DNA of 64,000 nucleotides, taken from contig JAGVMV010000006.1 in NCBI GenBank assembly GCA_020053595.1, forward strand, positions 49,325-113,324. The letters run 5' to 3'. The translations under genes were made by a program, and so were the position numbers. This DNA comes from Thermoleophilia bacterium. GTDB taxonomy: Bacteria > Actinomycetota > Thermoleophilia > BMS3ABIN01. The notes beneath the pieces are model-generated. The model had not been told where the DNA came from. It searched no databases and worked only from the letters and a program-made list of their open reading frames with translations. This document shows, one piece after another, positions 27,536-31,663 of the stretch (the stretch's first letter is position 1; every line of letters starts with the position of its first letter).

Positions 27536-30500
27536 ATGGCCGATCTACCTCATCACGAAATCATCGCGGAAAGCGGCCCCCTGGTCAAACTTTTCATCGA
27601 TGGCCGCCGTTTGCAGGTCAACCCCCGCATGACCATCCTGGAAGCCGCGCACGCGAACAGCATCGAGATACCTACCCTTTGCAATGACCCCCGTCTCGCG
27701 CCCGTCGGCAATTGTGGCCTGTGCCTGGTGGAGGTCGTCGAAACCGGCCTGGTGTACGCCTGTCAGACCCCCGTGGCCGAAGGCATGGAGGTCACCACCC
27801 TTAACCCGGAGATCGCCGAGGCGCGCAAACAAAGACTCACCGAGTATCTGACCAGCCACAACGCCTATTGTGAACCGCCCTGCCATAACGCGTGCCCGGC
27901 GCGCATCGATATTCCCGCCTACCTGGCGGCGATCGCCCGGGGGGATGACGCCGAAGCGATCAGGATCATCAAGCACCGGCTGCCATTGCCGCGCATAATC
28001 GGCCGGGTTTGCCCGCGCCCCTGCGAGAGCGCCTGCCGCCGTACCCAGGTTGATCAGGAACCGGTTGCCATCTGTCAGCTGAAGCGTTTCGCCAGCGACA
28101 GCGTCAGCGCCGCCGGCTCCGCGAGCATTGAAGAGCCCGCCGCATCCAGCGGCAAAAAAGTCGCCGTCATCGGCAGCGGCCCATCCGGCCTCTCCGCCGC
28201 CTATTACCTGGCTTTGAGCGGCCACCAGGTCACTATCTTCGAAGCTCATTCAGAACCAGGCGGTATGATGCTGACCGGTATTCCGCCCTACCGCCTGCCG
28301 CGGGAGATCATCCAGGCGGAAGTCGAAGACATCCTTAAAACCGGTGTCGAATTGAAGCTGAACAGCCGCTTCGGCAAAGATATTACTTTCGAAAGCCTGG
28401 AGTCCGATGGCTACGCGGCTACTCATCTGGCCATCGGCGCCCAACGGGGCTCGACCGGTGGTATCCCCGATGCAGGAGAGGGACAGGGCATCTATTCCGC
28501 CGTCGATTTTCTCCACAAAAGCAACGCCGGGCTATGGGACGCTCCCCTGGGCAAAACGCTGGTCGTGGGCGGTGGTTTCACCGCCCTGGATGCCTGCCGG
28601 TCTTCAATCCGGCTAGGCGCCGATGAAGTCACCGTGGTCTACCGCCGCTCCCGTAAAGAGATGCCGGCGACCGCGGACGAGGTCGAGGAGGCCGAACTGG
28701 AGGGCGTCAGGCTTTCGCTGCTCACCGCGCCGATCTCTGTTGTCCGCGAAGACGGCAAGGTAACCGGTGTCGTTTGTCAGACGATGGAGCTGGGCGAGCC
28801 CGACGACAGCGGCAGACGCCGCCCCGAAGCAGTGGAGGGTTCCGAGTTCACCATCGAGGCGGATACGGTCATCCTGGCCATCGGCCAGGAGGTCGACCAG
28901 TTCGGACTGGAAGACTCTCTGGATCTGAGCGGTTGGGGCACCATCGAGGCCAACCAGCGCACTCTGGCGACCAGCAGGGATGGAATTTTTGCCGGGGGCG
29001 ACTGCGAAACCGGCCCGGCTACAGTCGTTGAAGCCATCGCCGCCGGCCGCAGGGCCGCGGTTGCCATCGATGCATATATTAACGGCAAGGACCCCGATGA
29101 AGCCTGCTCAGCTCCCTCGGCCAGCCTCAAAAGACGCCGGCCGAAGCTGTTCGACATCGGCGCCAGGCCGCTTTCCGATGATAAACGGATCCATATGCCC
29201 GAACTCGCCATCGCCGACCGTGACAACTTCGATGAGATCGAGCTGGGTTTCGAGGAGAAGGCCGCCAGGAAAGAGGCCGCCCGCTGCCTGCAGTGTACCT
29301 GCCATGCTGTTTCCGCCTGCGAGCTGCAGCGCCTTTCCATCCGTTATGGCGCCGGCACCACCGAGTTTAAGGGCGAGGGCCAATATGAGCTTTACGATGG
29401 CTCGCCCATACTCCAGCTGGACCGCAAACGCTGCATCAAGTGCCACAACTGCGTCCGCATCTGCAACGAGCTGGAAATGAACAATGTTTACAGGGTAGAT
29501 GAAAATGGACATCCCGCCCTGCGGGGGAAAACCTATAAAGATTCCGGCTGCGTTTCGTGCGGACAATGCATCGACGTCTGCCCGACCGGCGCTCTGGTCA
29601 ACACTCAGCTGAAGGGTGTCCGTGAATGGGAGCTGGAAAGGGTGAGGACGACCTGCCCGCTCTGCGGCACCGGCTGTAATTTCGATCTGAACGTCAAGGA
29701 GGGCAGGGTCGTCGGGGTTACCACCAATGCGGATTCTCCGGTCAATAACCGCGCCCTCTGCGTCAAGGGCCGATATCACTCGGACTTGGTCCACAGCCCC
29801 GATCGCCTCACCACGCCGCTGGTCAGGAAAAACGGCAAGCTCGAGGAATCCACCTGGGATGAAGCCCTGGGCCTGGTGGCCTCGAGGCTTCAGGAGATAA
29901 AAGACCGGGACGGCGGCGATGCTTTCGCCGCCCTGAGTTCGGCCCGCTGTACCAACGAGGAAAACTGGGTGATGCAGAAATTTGTGAGGGCGGTGATGGG
30001 CACCAACAATCTCGACCATTGTGCCCGCACCTGACACGCTCCCACCGTGGCCGGTCTGGCCATATCGTTCGGCAGCGGAGCAATGACGAATTCCATCAAC
30101 GAAGTGGGATTCTACGACGCCCTGCTCATCATCGGCTCCAACGCCACCGAAGCGCATCCCATTATCGGGGGCAAGATGAAGCGTGCCGCGAGGCGCGGAG
30201 CCAGGATAATAGTGGCCGACCCCCGTCATGTAGAACTGGTCGATTACGCCGAGATCTGGCTGCGGCTCACCCCCGGCACTGACGCCGCGCTGGTCAACGG
30301 CATGATCAACATAATCATCAATGAAGGCTGGGCCGACCAGGAGTTCATGGAGGAGCGCTGCGAAGGTTACGACGCACTCTGGGAAGTCGTGCAGAAGTAT
30401 ACGCCGGCGATGGTCAGTGAAATCACCGGCGTCCCCGAGGACCAGCTCTACGCGGCGGCCGAGATTTATGCGCAGACGCCGAGGGCGGGCATCTTCTACA

Positions 30501-31663
30501 CCCTCGGCATCACCGAACACACCACCGGCACGGCCAATGTCATGAACCTGGCCAACCTGGCCATGGTGACCGGCCATGTCGGCGTCGAGCATGCCGGCGT
30601 CAATCCGCTGCGCGGCCAGAACAACGTCCAGGGAGCCTGCGACATGGGCGCTCTGCCCAACGTCTTCTCCGGCTACAGGCCTGTCAACGAAACGGAAAAC
30701 GTCGCCATTTTCGAAAAGAAATGGGGGGCGAAACTCAGCGATATGTCCGGACTGCGCATCCCGGAGATGTTCGACGAGATCATGGACGGCAAGCTCAAGG
30801 CGATGTACATCATGGGTGAAGACCCGGTGCTCACCGACGCCGATGCCAACCATGTCCGCAAAGCCATGGACGGCCTCGAGTTCCTGGTCGTGCAGGATAT
30901 ATTTCTGACGGAAACCGCCAAATACGCCGACGTGGTTCTACCGGCCGCCCTTTACGCGGAAAAAGACGGCACCTTCACCAACACCGAGCGCCGGGTCCAA
31001 AGGGTGCGAAAAGCGGTCGAGGCTCCCGGCGAGGCCCGTGCCGACTGGGAGATCATCTGCGACCTGGCCGGCCGCATGGGCTACGAGATGAATTATGCCT
31101 CCCCGGAGGATGTCTTCGAGGAAGTCAGGAGCCTGACGCCAGCCTATGCCGGCATGACCTATGACCGGCTGGACATCGCCGGCCTGCAATGGCCGTGCCC
31201 GGATATTCACCATCCCGGCACGCCGTACCTGCATGAGGGGACTTTCCCCAGGGGCAGAGGACTGCTGCAGGGAATCGAGTACGAAGCTCCGGCCGAGCTC
31301 ACCAGCGAGGAATATCCGATCCTGCTGACCACCGGGCGCATGCTCTACCATTACAACGTTTCGACCAGGAAATCCGGAACCCTCGAATCAATGGCGCCGC
31401 ATGAGCTGGCGGAGATAAATCCCGCGGATGCCGCCGCGATCGGCGTGTCCGAGGATGACCAGATGCGCGTCAGTTCGCGCCGCGGCTCGGTGGTGACCAG
31501 GGTGAAGATAACAGACCGGGTGCCGCCCGGGATCCTCTTCATGACTTTCCATTACTGGGAGACCGCGGTCAACGAGCTGACCAATTCCGCTTTCGATCCC
31601 ATATCCAAGACTGCGGAATTCAAGGTCTGCGCGGTCAGGATTGAGAAAGCCGAAGATGTGTGA
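27536..31663 (+). CDS. fdhA: selenocysteine-containing formate dehydrogenase alpha subunit with an N-terminal fused 2Fe-2S/GltD(SfrB)-like NAD(P)H oxidoreductase module (TGA at 30032-30034 read as Sec)
   Basis: Track ORFs 27536..30034 and 30047..31663 are in the same frame, separated only by one TGA. The context [29 protein letters not shown] matches the FdhF active-site Sec motif. A hairpin follows the TGA.

N-terminus: 2Fe-2S cluster, two Rossmann motifs (VAVIGSGPSGL, LVVGGGFTALDA) and two 4Fe-4S motifs. Then the FDH Fe4S4 domain (CPLCGTGCNF) and a molybdopterin domain. Confidence 0.85.
30035..30075 (+). promoter_or_regulatory. bacterial SECIS-like hairpin downstream of the in-frame UGA
   Basis: GGCC-GGUCU-GGCC stem-loop begins 14 nt after the TGA. 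The GGUCU apical loop resembles the fdhF-type SECIS loop. Confidence 0.55.

What the first reader, a model, noticed from the sequence alone, without database searches (positions are those of the whole stretch)
27536..31663. Single ~1375-aa selenoprotein: formate dehydrogenase alpha subunit fused to a GltD/SfrB-like NAD(P)H module, with the ORF track split at the Sec codon
- The two track ORFs, 27536..30034 and 30047..31663, share one reading frame. A single TGA at 30032-30034 separates them.
- The residues around that TGA read CART-[TGA][24 protein letters not shown]. That is the FdhF/FdhA active-site motif, in which the TGA encodes selenocysteine.
- A GGCC-GGUCU-GGCC hairpin starts 14 nt downstream, as expected for a bacterial SECIS.
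- The N-terminal 830 aa carry a 2Fe-2S cluster, two Rossmann motifs and 4Fe-4S motifs ahead of the FDH domain. This is a fused SfrB/GltD-like NAD(P)H oxidoreductase, so the enzyme is a candidate single-polypeptide NAD(P)H-linked formate dehydrogenase/CO2 reductase.
- An automated caller would output two truncated genes here.
Basis: partly seen in the sequence, partly recalled or inferred. Interest (0 to 1): 0.75.

Follow-up and report, generated by a model that had tools for sequence, protein, structure and literature searches.

The report
Selenocysteine formate dehydrogenase behind ZTP riboswitch
The two ORFs are one 1375-residue selenocysteine formate dehydrogenase/CO2 reductase with a built-in NADPH-oxidising module; that kind of enzyme is already known, but the ZTP (folate-stress) riboswitch in front of it is unexpected and suggests it makes formate from CO2 when one-carbon units run short.

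Summary
ORFs 27536-30034 and 30047-31663 share one frame and are separated only by TGA 30032-34. All 16 full-length homologues aligned have Cys-His at that column; the closest is 77% identical over 1372 residues. 77 homologue clusters end exactly there. A fdhF-type SECIS follows, and its five apical codons show no synonymous change across 10 Sec loci.

Residues 17-651 are SfrB/GltD-like: a 2Fe-2S cluster, FAD, an NADPH-type YRR motif and Fe-S clusters. Residues 697-1375 are an intact FdhF-type formate dehydrogenase. The domain order is that of StnC/NfnC, but the FDH site is intact and no StnAB-type genes lie nearby. Functionally it is a fused version of the Moorella NADPH-FDH. Fused Cys forms are already in databases, for example in Aeromonas and Methylocystis.

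It is conserved upstream of the gene in eight distinct loci. Relatives without it place the gene beside fhs/folD/metF or CODH genes. This implies that folate stress induces CO2 reduction to formate.

The Sec machinery could not be tested. Verdict: a new variant of a known kind, of moderate interest.

The parts
27326..27355 (+). Possible promoter: TTGCAT, 18-nt spacer, TG-n-TATTCT. It would place the transcription start at the 5' edge of the aptamer.
   Evidence: Read by eye. The CTGATAT core is invariant in 5 loci. The consensus scan did not flag it, so this is inference only.
27359..27457 (+). ZMP/ZTP riboswitch aptamer (pfl motif)
   Evidence: RF01750 scores 53.0 bits against a gathering score of 39. 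The same element lies at the same position upstream of the orthologue in L161, L162, L001, L081, L165, L168 and L172 at 50-55 bits. The P1 stem shows compensatory changes.
27439..27483 (+). Expression platform: an intrinsic terminator hairpin plus U6. Its 5' arm is the CGCCUGGGC pseudoknot strand of the aptamer, so ligand binding should prevent termination (ON switch).
   Evidence: dG -23.9 kcal/mol, z -3.2, and 0 of 200 shuffles fold as well. The hairpin and U-tract are conserved in 5 loci. The ON-switch logic follows PMC7337938 and PMC2864571.
27536..31663 (+). Single gene for a 1375-aa selenoprotein: an NADPH-module/formate dehydrogenase fusion. An SD-like AGGGA lies 8 nt before the ATG.
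27584..27805 (+). N-terminal [2Fe-2S] ferredoxin-like domain (aa 17-90; invariant Cys 49, 60, 63, 76)
   Evidence: Pfam Fer2_4. Invariant columns.
27866..29047 (+). GltD/NfnB/SfrB-like module (aa 111-504): two [4Fe-4S] clusters (Fer4_20), FAD Rossmann fold GSGPSG (213-218), NADPH Rossmann fold GGG (345-347) and Y369-R370-R371...E375-M376-P377-A378.
   Evidence: E 8e-119 to 9bov_A, 5e-107 to StnC 8oh5_C, 1e-89 to NfnB 4ylf_B.
29285..29320 (+). Invariant CxxCxC...C motif (C584, C587, C589, C595), probably one further [4Fe-4S] cluster linking the two modules.
   Evidence: Invariant in 22 homologues and in 16 full-length forms. The cluster assignment is inferred.
29429..29794 (+). Ferredoxin-type 2x[4Fe-4S] domain (aa 632-686) followed by the Molybdop_Fe4S4 cluster (aa 702-753, with Lys744 in CVKGR).
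29804..31633 (+). Mo/W-bis-PGD catalytic domains (Molybdopterin aa 757-1179, Molydop_binding aa 1263-1366). Active site U833-H834 and R1026 (LRGQNNVQG).
   Evidence: 42.5% identical to E. coli FdhH over 690 aa.
30032..30034 (+). UGA codon 833, read as selenocysteine.
   Evidence: It aligns with Cys in all 16 full-length homologues aligned and with the E. coli FdhH Sec140 codon. TGA is conserved in the related Sec-form loci.
30032..30087 (+). Bacterial SECIS. Apical hairpin GGCC-GGUCU-GGCC at 30049-30061, with the loop GGUCU at nt 22-26 counted from the U of UGA.
   Evidence: - Rfam SECIS_3 scores 43.7 bits, E 5e-8, below the gathering score of 63.
- The loop position is the same as in E. coli fdhF.
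- Codons +5 to +9 show zero synonymous variation in 10 loci, against a mean of 0.42 elsewhere, p=4e-4.
- The stem is degraded in the Cys form L170.
31656..32702 (+). MoeA-like molybdopterin-binding protein. Its ATG overlaps the FDH stop (ATGTGTGA), suggesting translational coupling.
   Evidence: The same 8-nt overlap occurs in L161.
32503..33321 (+). FmdE-family protein with a C4 zinc finger. The true start is probably near 32710, because the listed ORF overlaps the preceding gene.
   Evidence: The orthologues are 195-201 aa.
23510..27274 (+). Upstream cofactor-biosynthesis genes: mobA-mobB fusion, moaA, moaC, a MOSC protein and mogA/moaB.
   Evidence: Synteny is conserved in L161, L165 and L172.

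Best explanation
**What it is.** 27536-31663 encodes one cytoplasmic 1375-residue molybdo- or tungsto-selenoprotein.

**Sec insertion (inferred).** Translation passes UGA-833 because a fdhF-type SECIS hairpin immediately downstream recruits SelB and Sec-tRNA.

**Electron path (inferred from homology).** NADPH is oxidised at the FAD of the GltD/SfrB-like module. Electrons then pass one at a time through about six [4Fe-4S] clusters to the bis-PGD metal centre. That centre is ligated by Sec833 and flanked by His834 and Arg1026. There CO2 and formate are interconverted. The protein is in effect the beta and alpha subunits of the Moorella-type NADPH formate dehydrogenase joined on an StnC-like scaffold. 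No NuoE/NuoF-type partner is encoded nearby.

**Regulation (inferred from the RNA anatomy).** The operon (FDH, MoeA-like, FmdE) sits behind a ZTP riboswitch whose terminator overlaps the aptamer. Transcription should therefore read through only when ZMP/ZTP accumulates, which happens when 10-formyl-THF is short. The likely physiological job is thus CO2 reduction to formate. Formate-THF ligase would then use that formate to rebuild 10-formyl-THF. This is the role pyruvate formate-lyase plays in other ZTP regulons.

**Shown directly:** the single frame, the Sec/Cys exchange, the domain and motif content, RNA-level constraint on the hairpin, and the presence and conservation of the riboswitch and terminator.

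**Inferred:** Sec insertion itself, NADPH as the donor, the direction of catalysis, and ZTP responsiveness.

**Confidence by layer:** one Sec-containing gene about 0.9; NADPH-linked FDH about 0.7; ZTP-induced CO2 reduction as the physiological role about 0.5.
For: **One gene, with Sec**
- One frame with a single internal TGA.
- All 16 full-length homologues aligned carry Cys-His at that column. P0025 is 77% identical over 1372 aligned residues spanning both halves.
- 77 clusters truncate exactly at ...CAR[T/L].
- TGA is conserved in the related Sec-form loci, and one close relative has TGC.
- UGA serves as an ordinary stop for many other genes in the window, so the genetic code is standard.

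**SECIS**
- SECIS_3 hit at E 5e-8.
- The GGUCU loop lies at nt 22-26, as in E. coli fdhF.
- No synonymous change in the five apical codons, p=4e-4.
- The Cys form has lost stem pairs and scores 10 bits lower.

**Enzyme**
- TIGR01591 is above its cutoff.
- The best solved match is HDCR FdhF, 7qv7_S.
- U-H, R1026, K744 and all Fe-S cysteines are conserved.
- The GltD module keeps the YRR...EMPA motif.
- No NuoE/F-like gene lies in the window or in the related loci whose gene tables were read.
- The Moorella NADPH-FDH is SfrB2 plus a Sec-split alpha subunit (PMC13040438).

**Regulation and role**
- RF01750 scores above its gathering score in the window and in 7 further loci at 71-95% protein identity.
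- A terminator overlaps the aptamer.
- P1 shows compensatory changes.
- Relatives without the riboswitch place the gene next to fhs-fchA-folD-metV-metF (L163, L169, L174), fhs plus CODH (L167) or fchA-folD (L170).
Against: - No selA, selB, selD or tRNA-Sec lies in the 64 kb window or in 15 related loci. The decoding machinery is therefore unverified.
- The SECIS_3 score (43.7) is below Rfam's gathering score (63). It also partly reflects conserved coding sequence, since the Cys form still scores 34.
- The hairpin's folding energy is not better than shuffles, z -0.84.
- NADPH specificity and stand-alone function are inferred from motifs and gene context only.
- CO2 reduction by NADPH is uphill under standard conditions.
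- The N-terminal [2Fe-2S] domain has no assigned partner.
- Several relatives sit beside corrinoid/methyltransferase and THF genes. Those could run oxidatively, from methyl groups to CO2, in which case the enzyme would oxidise formate.
- No fhs gene lies in this window.
Confidence: 0.65

Rival explanations
1. The enzyme is not stand-alone. Like StnC/NfnC, it is the large subunit of a Bfu-type complex whose NuoE/NuoF-like partners are encoded elsewhere. Alternatively its own NfnB-like FAD bifurcates, coupling NADPH oxidation to CO2 reduction plus a second acceptor or donor such as ferredoxin or NAD.
For: - Over residues 16-1041 the closest solved whole-architecture matches are NfnC (9bov_A, E 3.9e-207) and StnC (8oh5_C, E 1.4e-189).
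- The N-terminal [2Fe-2S] domain, which belongs to the NuoG part that docks StnC onto StnAB (PMC10482914), is retained with invariant cysteines.
- The Arg equivalent to NfnB R201 / StnC R239 is present as R253.
- Extra driving force would help the uphill CO2 reduction.
Against: - No NuoE/NuoF-like genes lie in the window or next to the gene in the related loci read.
- StnC's FDH domain is catalytically dead and its FAD does not bifurcate (PMC10482914), whereas here the FDH site is intact.
- The Moorella two-subunit NADPH-FDH works without such partners (PMC13040438).
- Sequence alone cannot tell a bifurcating flavin site from a non-bifurcating one.
Confidence: 0.15
2. The molecule is the same, but its physiological direction is formate oxidation. 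It would be an NADP+-reducing formate dehydrogenase that ends a THF-dependent C1 oxidation route or removes formate.
For: - In L163, L169 and L174 the orthologue follows a corrinoid-binding protein gene. It lies beside fhs-fchA-folD-metF-lpd, and in L163 also a URO-D-type gene, a layout compatible with methyl-group oxidation.
- Mo/W FDHs are reversible (established knowledge).
- NADPH-driven CO2 reduction is thermodynamically unfavourable under standard conditions.
Against: - An ON-type ZTP switch induces the gene when 10-formyl-THF is scarce (PMC2864571). Consuming formate at that moment would be counter-productive.
- The nearest characterised catalytic relatives, HDCR FdhF and the Moorella NADPH-FDH, act as CO2 reductases in vivo (PMC13040438).
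- One relative, L167, sits with CODH, cooC and fhs, a reductive acetyl-CoA-pathway context.
Confidence: 0.25
3. The TGA is a genuine stop. The locus would encode two separate polypeptides, an 832-aa flavo-Fe-S protein and a 538-aa molybdopterin protein, that assemble after translation.
For: Gene callers and databases list them as two proteins.
Against: - The proposed second start (GTG 30047) is the Val of the conserved HAPTVAGL motif.
- The 12 nt between the ORFs encode the conserved His-Ala-Pro-Thr.
- No separate ribosome-binding site is evident.
- The break falls at the catalytic residue, inside the Molybdopterin domain (757-1179).
- Cys-containing homologues are continuous.
- The downstream RNA is under SECIS-like constraint.
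Confidence: 0.03
4. The TGA is a sequencing or assembly error, or an inactivating mutation that makes this a pseudogene.
For: None is specific. A single-base TGC/TGT-to-TGA change is formally possible.
Against: - The same TGA is present in independent assemblies at 67-95% protein identity.
- Both halves keep strong coding signatures, with GC3 of 0.74 and 0.79, and all catalytic and cofactor residues.
Confidence: 0.02

Closest known systems
Moorella thermoacetica NADPH-dependent formate dehydrogenase (beta = SfrB2; Sec-containing alpha annotated as sfrA2 + fdhF3)
   Same: Both have an SfrB/GltD-like NADPH-oxidising Fe-S flavoprotein and a Sec-containing Mo/W-bis-PGD catalytic unit. Both are cytoplasmic and linked to the THF C1 pathway. 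In both, annotation splits the alpha gene at the Sec codon (PMC13040438).
   Different: Here the two subunits are one polypeptide, and the catalytic part is a minimal FdhF type attached through a 2x[4Fe-4S] domain. I could not align it directly, because no Moorella sequence was available. Regulation by a ZTP riboswitch is not reported for Moorella.
StnC / NfnC (NsoC), the large subunit of Stn/Nfn-Bfu electron-bifurcating transhydrogenases (PDB 8oh5_C, 9bov_A)
   Same: The domain order is the same: N-terminal [2Fe-2S], GltD-like FAD/NADPH module with two [4Fe-4S], further [4Fe-4S] clusters, then an FdhF-like domain. E-values are 1e-189 to 4e-207 over residues 16-1041 (PMC10482914, PMC7483475).
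   Different: The StnC FdhF domain is catalytically inactive and shows no formate activity, and its sequence match stops short of the cap domain. StnC works with StnA/StnB. Here the Sec-His, Arg and Lys residues and the Molydop_binding domain are intact, and no StnAB genes are nearby.
FdhF-type formate dehydrogenases/CO2 reductases (E. coli FdhH 1aa6; HDCR FdhF 7qv7_S)
   Same: - The catalytic domain matches at E 3.6e-231 to 7qv7_S and is 42.5% identical to FdhH.
- Sec sits at the homologous codon.
- The SECIS has the GGUCU loop at the same distance from UGA as E. coli fdhF.
   Different: Those enzymes receive or donate electrons through separate hydrogenase or Fe-S subunits. This one carries its own NADPH module.
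Fused Cys-type 'formate dehydrogenase subunit alpha' proteins of about 1370-1450 aa (e.g. Aeromonas sobria L004, Methylocystis hirsuta P0103, MAG proteins P0025/P0055)
   Same: The architecture is the same over the full length, at 44-77% identity. The active-site C-H, R, K, YRR and Fe-S motifs are conserved.
   Different: They use Cys instead of Sec and so need no SECIS. I found no biochemical characterisation of any member. The one Cys-form locus scanned (L170) lacks the ZTP riboswitch.
ZTP (pfl-motif) riboswitch regulon
   Same: The aptamer scores above the Rfam gathering score. A terminator overlaps its 3' part, giving ON-switch logic. The downstream gene can supply formate for 10-formyl-THF, as pfl and fhs do (PMC2864571, PMC7337938).
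   Different: A formate dehydrogenase is not among the genes listed for this regulon in the papers I could read. No paper in the searchable library links the two. The 2015 primary paper could not be opened.

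Membership tests
Mo/W-bis-PGD formate dehydrogenase, FdhF/FdhA type (TIGR01591) | Whole-protein score above the curated equivalog cutoff | tested here: met
   859.5 bits against a cutoff of 666.25, residues 705-1369.
Mo/W-bis-PGD formate dehydrogenase, FdhF/FdhA type (TIGR01591) | Sec or Cys metal ligand followed by the catalytic His, plus the catalytic Arg and the Lys next to the proximal [4Fe-4S] | tested here: met
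   U833-H834, R1026 in LRGQNNVQG and K744 in CVKGR. They align with E. coli FdhH Sec140-His141 and are conserved in 16 homologues.
Mo/W-bis-PGD formate dehydrogenase, FdhF/FdhA type (TIGR01591) | Formate/CO2 oxidoreductase activity and the identity of the metal (Mo or W) | not testable with these tools
   This needs purified protein and metal analysis.
Bacterial selenoprotein gene | In-frame UGA at a position occupied by Cys in homologues | tested here: met
   All 16 full-length homologues aligned carry Cys. The close relative L170 has TGC.
Bacterial selenoprotein gene | SECIS stem-loop immediately 3' of the UGA | tested here: inconclusive
   - For: a hairpin with the GGUCU loop at the E. coli fdhF position, and zero synonymous change in 5 apical codons, p=4e-4.
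- Against: Rfam SECIS_3 scores 43.7, below its gathering score of 63, and the folding-energy z-score is only -0.84.
Bacterial selenoprotein gene | selA, selB, selC (tRNA-Sec) and selD in the genome | not testable with these tools
   None lies in the window, and no tRNA-Sec lies in 15 related loci. The rest of the genome is not available.
GltD/NfnB/SfrB-type NADPH-oxidising Fe-S flavoprotein module | Fer4_20 two-cluster domain plus an FAD/NAD(P) double Rossmann fold | tested here: met
   Pfam Fer4_20 at 2.5e-23 and Pyr_redox_2 at 6.6e-28. E 1e-89 to NfnB 4ylf_B.
GltD/NfnB/SfrB-type NADPH-oxidising Fe-S flavoprotein module | NADPH-type motif (YRR...EMPA) in the second Rossmann fold | tested here: met
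   Y369-R370-R371...E375-M376-P377-A378 are invariant in 22 homologues. The motif is shared with NfnB, StnC and NfnC in the alignments. Cofactor preference itself was not measured.
GltD/NfnB/SfrB-type NADPH-oxidising Fe-S flavoprotein module | NCBIfam PRK12814 (SfrB-like, 657 aa) equivalog cutoff | tested here: not met
   668.7 bits against a cutoff of 916, although the match covers model positions 4-636. The region is related to this family, but the protein is not an equivalog of the free-standing protein.
StnC/NfnC large subunit of Bfu-type transhydrogenases | Domain order [2Fe-2S] - GltD - Fe-S - FdhF-like | tested here: met
   PMC10482914.
StnC/NfnC large subunit of Bfu-type transhydrogenases | Degenerate, catalytically inactive FdhF-like domain | tested here: not met
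   The active-site residues and the Molydop_binding cap are intact. In the pattern scan, only one of the distant GltD-related genome loci (L004) carried a C-[C/U]-H active-site motif fused to a GltD module.
StnC/NfnC large subunit of Bfu-type transhydrogenases | Co-encoded StnA/StnB (NuoE/NuoF-like) bifurcating module | tested here: not met
   Absent from the window and from the related loci whose gene tables were read. Genes elsewhere in the genome cannot be excluded.
ZTP riboswitch (RF01750) | Covariance-model score above the gathering score, conserved in orthologous positions | tested here: met
   53.0 against 39 in the window, and 50-55 bits in 7 other loci. P1 shows compensatory pairs.
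ZTP riboswitch (RF01750) | Expression platform competing with the pseudoknot strand | tested here: met
   The terminator at 27439-27483 includes CGCCUGGGC, with dG -23.9 and z -3.2. It is conserved.
ZTP riboswitch (RF01750) | ZMP/ZTP binding and ligand-dependent read-through | not testable with these tools
   This needs in-line probing or in vitro transcription.

The most novel reading that the evidence does not exclude
A formate dehydrogenase is a previously unlisted member of the ZTP (folate-stress) regulon. When 10-formyl-THF runs short, a probably anaerobic Thermoleophilia-like actinobacterium switches on a stand-alone, single-polypeptide, NADPH-driven selenoenzyme that reduces CO2 to formate. 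Formate-THF ligase can then rebuild the C1 pool from CO2 itself. The riboswitch thereby reveals the in vivo direction of an otherwise reversible enzyme. The retained N-terminal [2Fe-2S] domain may also provide a second electron entry (ferredoxin) that helps the uphill step.
Probability: 0.4. Interest if true: 0.6.

Novelty: new variant of a known kind. Interest (0 to 1): 0.45.

Why it matters
- **Annotation.** This enzyme family is systematically mis-annotated as two truncated genes. 77 database clusters stop at the Sec codon. Metabolic reconstructions of these uncultured Actinomycetota therefore miss a complete CO2 reductase.
- **Biotechnology.** A self-contained NADPH-to-CO2 enzyme in one polypeptide is an attractive chassis for CO2-to-formate conversion. 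It is also a natural 'active' counterpart to the structurally solved but FDH-dead StnC/NfnC, which is useful for asking how that scaffold lost or gained catalysis.
- **Physiology.** The riboswitch gives a rare sequence-level hint about the in vivo direction of a reversible FDH. It adds CO2 reduction to the responses that restore 10-formyl-THF. Transcription assays and labelling can test this directly.

Tried and rejected
- **Source contig.** An exact-sequence look-up of the window's own 832-aa product found nothing on record.
- **Collection scans.** They returned only one and three close relatives. Most of the 160 loci are StnC-like or plain GltD genes. I used exact-protein look-ups instead.
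- **Sec machinery.** Pfam/NCBIfam scans of essentially all window ORFs of at least 125 aa, plus tRNA scans, found no sel genes or tRNA-Sec.
- **Other selenoprotein genes in the window.** None was found.
- **SECIS folding energy.** It is not informative, z -0.84. I also could not treat the Rfam SECIS_3 score as independent evidence, because the Cys form still scores 34 bits.
- **Bifurcating versus non-bifurcating flavin.** The diagnostic Arg (NfnB R201 / StnC R239) is conserved in both kinds, so sequence cannot decide.
- **Moco riboswitch.** Relatives have one upstream of the cofactor genes (L161, L165, L172). The window has none at gathering level, and a permissive scan of 19700-20700 also found none.
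- **Literature.** I found no paper linking the ZTP/pfl motif with formate dehydrogenase, and none describing a Bfu/GltD-fused active FDH. The 2015 ZTP paper could not be opened.
- **Taxonomy.** Cluster-member names added nothing beyond 'Thermoleophilia bacterium'.
- **Structure prediction.** Not run. The protein exceeds the 1200-aa limit, and solved homologues already cover every domain.

Full report
**1. Observation**

ORFs 27536..30034 (832 aa) and 30047..31663 (538 aa) lie in one frame. Translating 27536-31663 gives 1375 codons with a single internal stop, TGA at 30032-34. Its context is ...[29 protein letters not shown].... The nominal GTG start of the second ORF is the Val codon of HAPTVAGL. 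The hairpin GGCC(30049-52)-GGUCU-GGCC(30058-61) starts 14 nt after the TGA.

A window-wide scan for coding-TGA-coding junctions finds this site plus three artefacts antisense to clpB, the malic enzyme gene and ligA. Many other ORFs in the window with coding composition end in TGA, so the genetic code is standard.

**2. One gene, with Sec at codon 833**

A search with the 832-aa part found two groups of relatives.
- 77 clusters of about 830 aa all end ...DHCAR[T/L], exactly at the TGA.
- 32 are full-length proteins of 1357-1448 aa.

In an alignment of 16 full-length proteins, every one has Cys-His at the column of the TGA. The closest (P0025) is 77% identical over 1372 aligned residues spanning both 'halves'. 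At the DNA level the close relatives fetched with flanks carry TGA there, and the nearest Cys form (L170) has TGC.

**3. SECIS**

- *Rfam.* SECIS_3 matches 30029-30087 at 43.7 bits, E 5e-8 in a 3.1 kb search. This is below the family's gathering score of 63.
- *Comparison with E. coli fdhF*, fetched from MG1655. UGA aligns with the Sec140 codon, 43 of 63 downstream bases are identical, and the GGUCU loop occupies nt 22-26 from the U of UGA in both.
- *Synonymous constraint.* Ten Sec-type loci at 67-95% protein identity were compared. The five four- or six-fold degenerate codons forming the apical hairpin (V-A-G-L-A, codons +5 to +9) show no synonymous difference at all. The mean pairwise synonymous difference is 0.42 at 53 other conserved codons (Mann-Whitney p=4e-4).
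- *The Cys form.* L170 has changed two of these stem positions and scores 10 bits lower.
- *Caveats.*
  - The Cys form still scores 34 bits, so the covariance model partly sees conserved coding sequence.
  - The hairpin's free energy is not unusual, z -0.84.
  - No selA/B/D gene or tRNA-Sec lies in the window or in 15 related loci, so the machinery remains untested.

**4. What the protein is**

Pfam gives the following domains.

| Domain | Residues |
|---|---|
| Fer2_4 | 17-90 |
| Fer4_20 | 111-192 |
| Pyr_redox_2 | 207-504 |
| Fer4_7 | 632-686 |
| Molybdop_Fe4S4 | 702-753 |
| Molybdopterin | 757-1179 |
| Molydop_binding | 1263-1366 |

- *NCBIfam.* Residues 705-1369 fall in the formate dehydrogenase alpha equivalog TIGR01591, at 859.5 bits against a cutoff of 666. 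Residues 17-651 match the SfrB-like PRK12814 model almost end to end, but below its cutoff.
- *Solved structures*.
  - The C-terminal 680 residues match the CO2-reductase FdhF of HDCR best (7qv7_S, E 3.6e-231).
  - Residues 16-1041 match the whole length of NfnC (9bov_A) and StnC (8oh5_C).
- *StnC.* It is described as a GltD domain inserted into a NuoG-like protein with a catalytically inactive FdhF domain. It works with the bifurcating StnAB module and shows no formate activity (PMC10482914, PMC7483475).
- *This protein's FDH site is intact.*
  - Present: U833-H834, R1026 (LRGQNNVQG) and K744 (CVKGR).
  - Also present: the cap domain and invariant cysteines for one [2Fe-2S] and about six [4Fe-4S] clusters, including a CxxCxC...C motif at 584-595.
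- *The GltD module.* It keeps the FAD glycine motif and Y369-R370-R371...EMPA, shared with the NADPH-binding NfnB, StnC and NfnC.
- *Partners.* No NuoE/NuoF-like gene occurs in the window or beside the orthologues.
- *Closest characterised counterpart.* This is the Moorella thermoacetica NADPH-FDH. Its beta subunit is SfrB2, and its Sec-containing alpha subunit is likewise annotated as two genes (PMC13040438).

The architecture is not new, however. Fused Cys forms exist in cultured bacteria (Aeromonas sobria, 1387 aa, L004; Methylocystis hirsuta P0103) and are already named formate dehydrogenase subunit alpha. I found no biochemical study of any fused active member.

**5.

- *Aptamer.* Rfam finds a ZMP/ZTP riboswitch aptamer at 27359-27457, at 53 bits against a gathering score of 39. 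It lies 78 nt upstream of the ATG.
- *Terminator.* Immediately after it, 27439-27483 folds into a long hairpin followed by U6 (dG -23.9 kcal/mol, z -3.2, 0 of 200 shuffles as good). The hairpin's 5' arm is the CGCCUGGGC pseudoknot strand of the aptamer. This is the canonical ON-switch design (PMC7337938, PMC2864571).
- *Conservation.*
  - Aptamer and terminator are conserved in five loci.
  - The aptamer scores 50-55 bits at the same position in L161, L162, L001, L081, L165, L168 and L172, at 71-95% protein identity.
  - The P1 stem shows compensatory changes.

Orthologues without the riboswitch sit in the following contexts.

| Locus | Neighbouring genes |
|---|---|
| L163, L169, L174 | fhs-fchA-folD-metV-like-metF-lpd, with a corrinoid-binding protein gene directly upstream |
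| L167 | fhs with CODH, cooC and cooT |
| L170 | fchA-folD |
| L173 | pyrimidine-biosynthesis genes, with fmt a few kb downstream |

The gene is thus tied to THF one-carbon metabolism either by position or by the riboswitch. [quoted passage not shown] No searchable paper connects ZTP with a formate dehydrogenase.

**6. Mechanism proposed**

- *Shown:* the single frame, the motifs, the RNA elements and their conservation.
- *Inferred, in order:*
  1. When 10-formyl-THF is limiting, ZMP/ZTP accumulates and stabilises the pseudoknot. The terminator does not form.
  2. The FDH-moeA-like-fmdE operon is transcribed. The moeA-like ATG overlaps the FDH stop.
  3. SelB reads UGA-833 as Sec.
  4. The enzyme takes electrons from NADPH at FAD and passes them through the Fe-S chain to the Mo/W centre, reducing CO2 to formate.
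  5. Fhs then converts formate to 10-formyl-THF.

The uphill NADPH-to-CO2 step is the same one the Moorella enzyme performs. It would be pulled by ATP-dependent formate fixation (established knowledge, not tested here).

**7. Context**

- *Upstream genes.* These are mobA-mobB, moaA, moaC, a MOSC gene and mogA/moaB, in the order seen in L161, L165 and L172.
- *Extra block in this window.*
  - A multihaem cytochrome c gene.
  - A PhsA/DmsA-like molybdoenzyme with its Fe-S subunit and a NarJ-like chaperone.
  - A second moeA-like/fmdE pair.
  - A MOT1-type transporter gene.
- *Lifestyle.* Flavodiiron protein, rubredoxin-domain and desulfoferrodoxin genes point to an anaerobic lifestyle.
- *Taxonomy.* The nearest named relatives are Thermoleophilia MAGs.

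**8. Rivals**

| Rival explanation | Confidence |
|---|---|
| Subunit of a bifurcating complex, or self-bifurcating | 0.15 |
| Same enzyme working oxidatively | 0.25 |
| Genuine stop, two polypeptides | 0.03 |
| Sequencing error or pseudogene | 0.02 |

**9. Verdict**

The ZTP riboswitch adds a new and testable regulatory and physiological angle. I classify the locus as a new variant of a known kind, with interest 0.45.

Noticed in passing
window 27359-27483: A ZTP riboswitch aptamer plus an overlapping intrinsic terminator lies directly upstream of the FDH gene. It is conserved in seven related loci.
   Followed up: yes
L161 5814-5968; L165 5820-5954; L172 3949-4102 (absent in the window): Relatives carry a Moco/Wco riboswitch (RF01055, 65-71 bits) in front of mobAB-moaA-moaC. 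The window has none at gathering level, and none in 19700-20700 with permissive filters. In the window that position is occupied by an inserted block of genes.
   Followed up: partly
window 14731-23577: This block is absent from the syntenic relatives L161, L165 and L172. It holds a multihaem cytochrome c gene (14731-15654), a PhsA/DmsA-like molybdoenzyme (15945-18557), a 4Fe-4S subunit (18576-19127), a NarJ/TorD-like chaperone (19137-19781), a second MoeA-like gene (20663-21712), a second FmdE gene (21722-22342) and a MOT1-family MFS molybdate transporter (22201-23577). The two MoeA-like/FmdE pairs may serve the two molybdo/tungsto-enzymes separately (compare MoeA paralogue specialisation in PMC13197769).
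   Followed up: partly
L163 9361-10011, L169 7360-8004, L174 7327-7968: In the relatives that have the THF gene cluster, a B12-binding (corrinoid) protein gene lies immediately upstream of the FDH. In L163 and L169 it overlaps the FDH start, which suggests co-translation with a methyltransferase system. A GntR regulator gene precedes it.
   Followed up: no
window 33387-33665: A HigB-like toxin gene sits between the FmdE gene and ligA (34174-36261). At the equivalent place, L161 has an HTH gene and L172 has a RHH/PIN pair. This looks like a variable toxin-antitoxin slot.
   Followed up: no
window 41250-43535: An anaerobe-type oxygen-defence cluster: a flavodiiron protein (ODP + flavodoxin), a rubredoxin-domain protein and a desulfoferrodoxin.
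   Followed up: no
window 54898-56975 (- strand): A baeRF family-10 protein (bacterial homologue of archaeo-eukaryotic release factors) lies next to a DUF1385 gene and downstream of clpB (51807-54449). A second, short ClpB_D2-small ORF lies at 46563-46973.
   Followed up: no
window 63474-63771 (- strand): A cluster of three tRNA genes: Ala(TGC), Ala(CGC) and Val(CAC). There is no tRNA-Sec.
   Followed up: yes
L168 4023-7652 (- strand): A 1209-aa ORF combines Molybdopterin and Molydop_binding domains with an Aminotran_5 (cysteine desulfurase-like) domain. It is transcribed divergently from the ZTP-controlled FDH in this relative.
   Followed up: no
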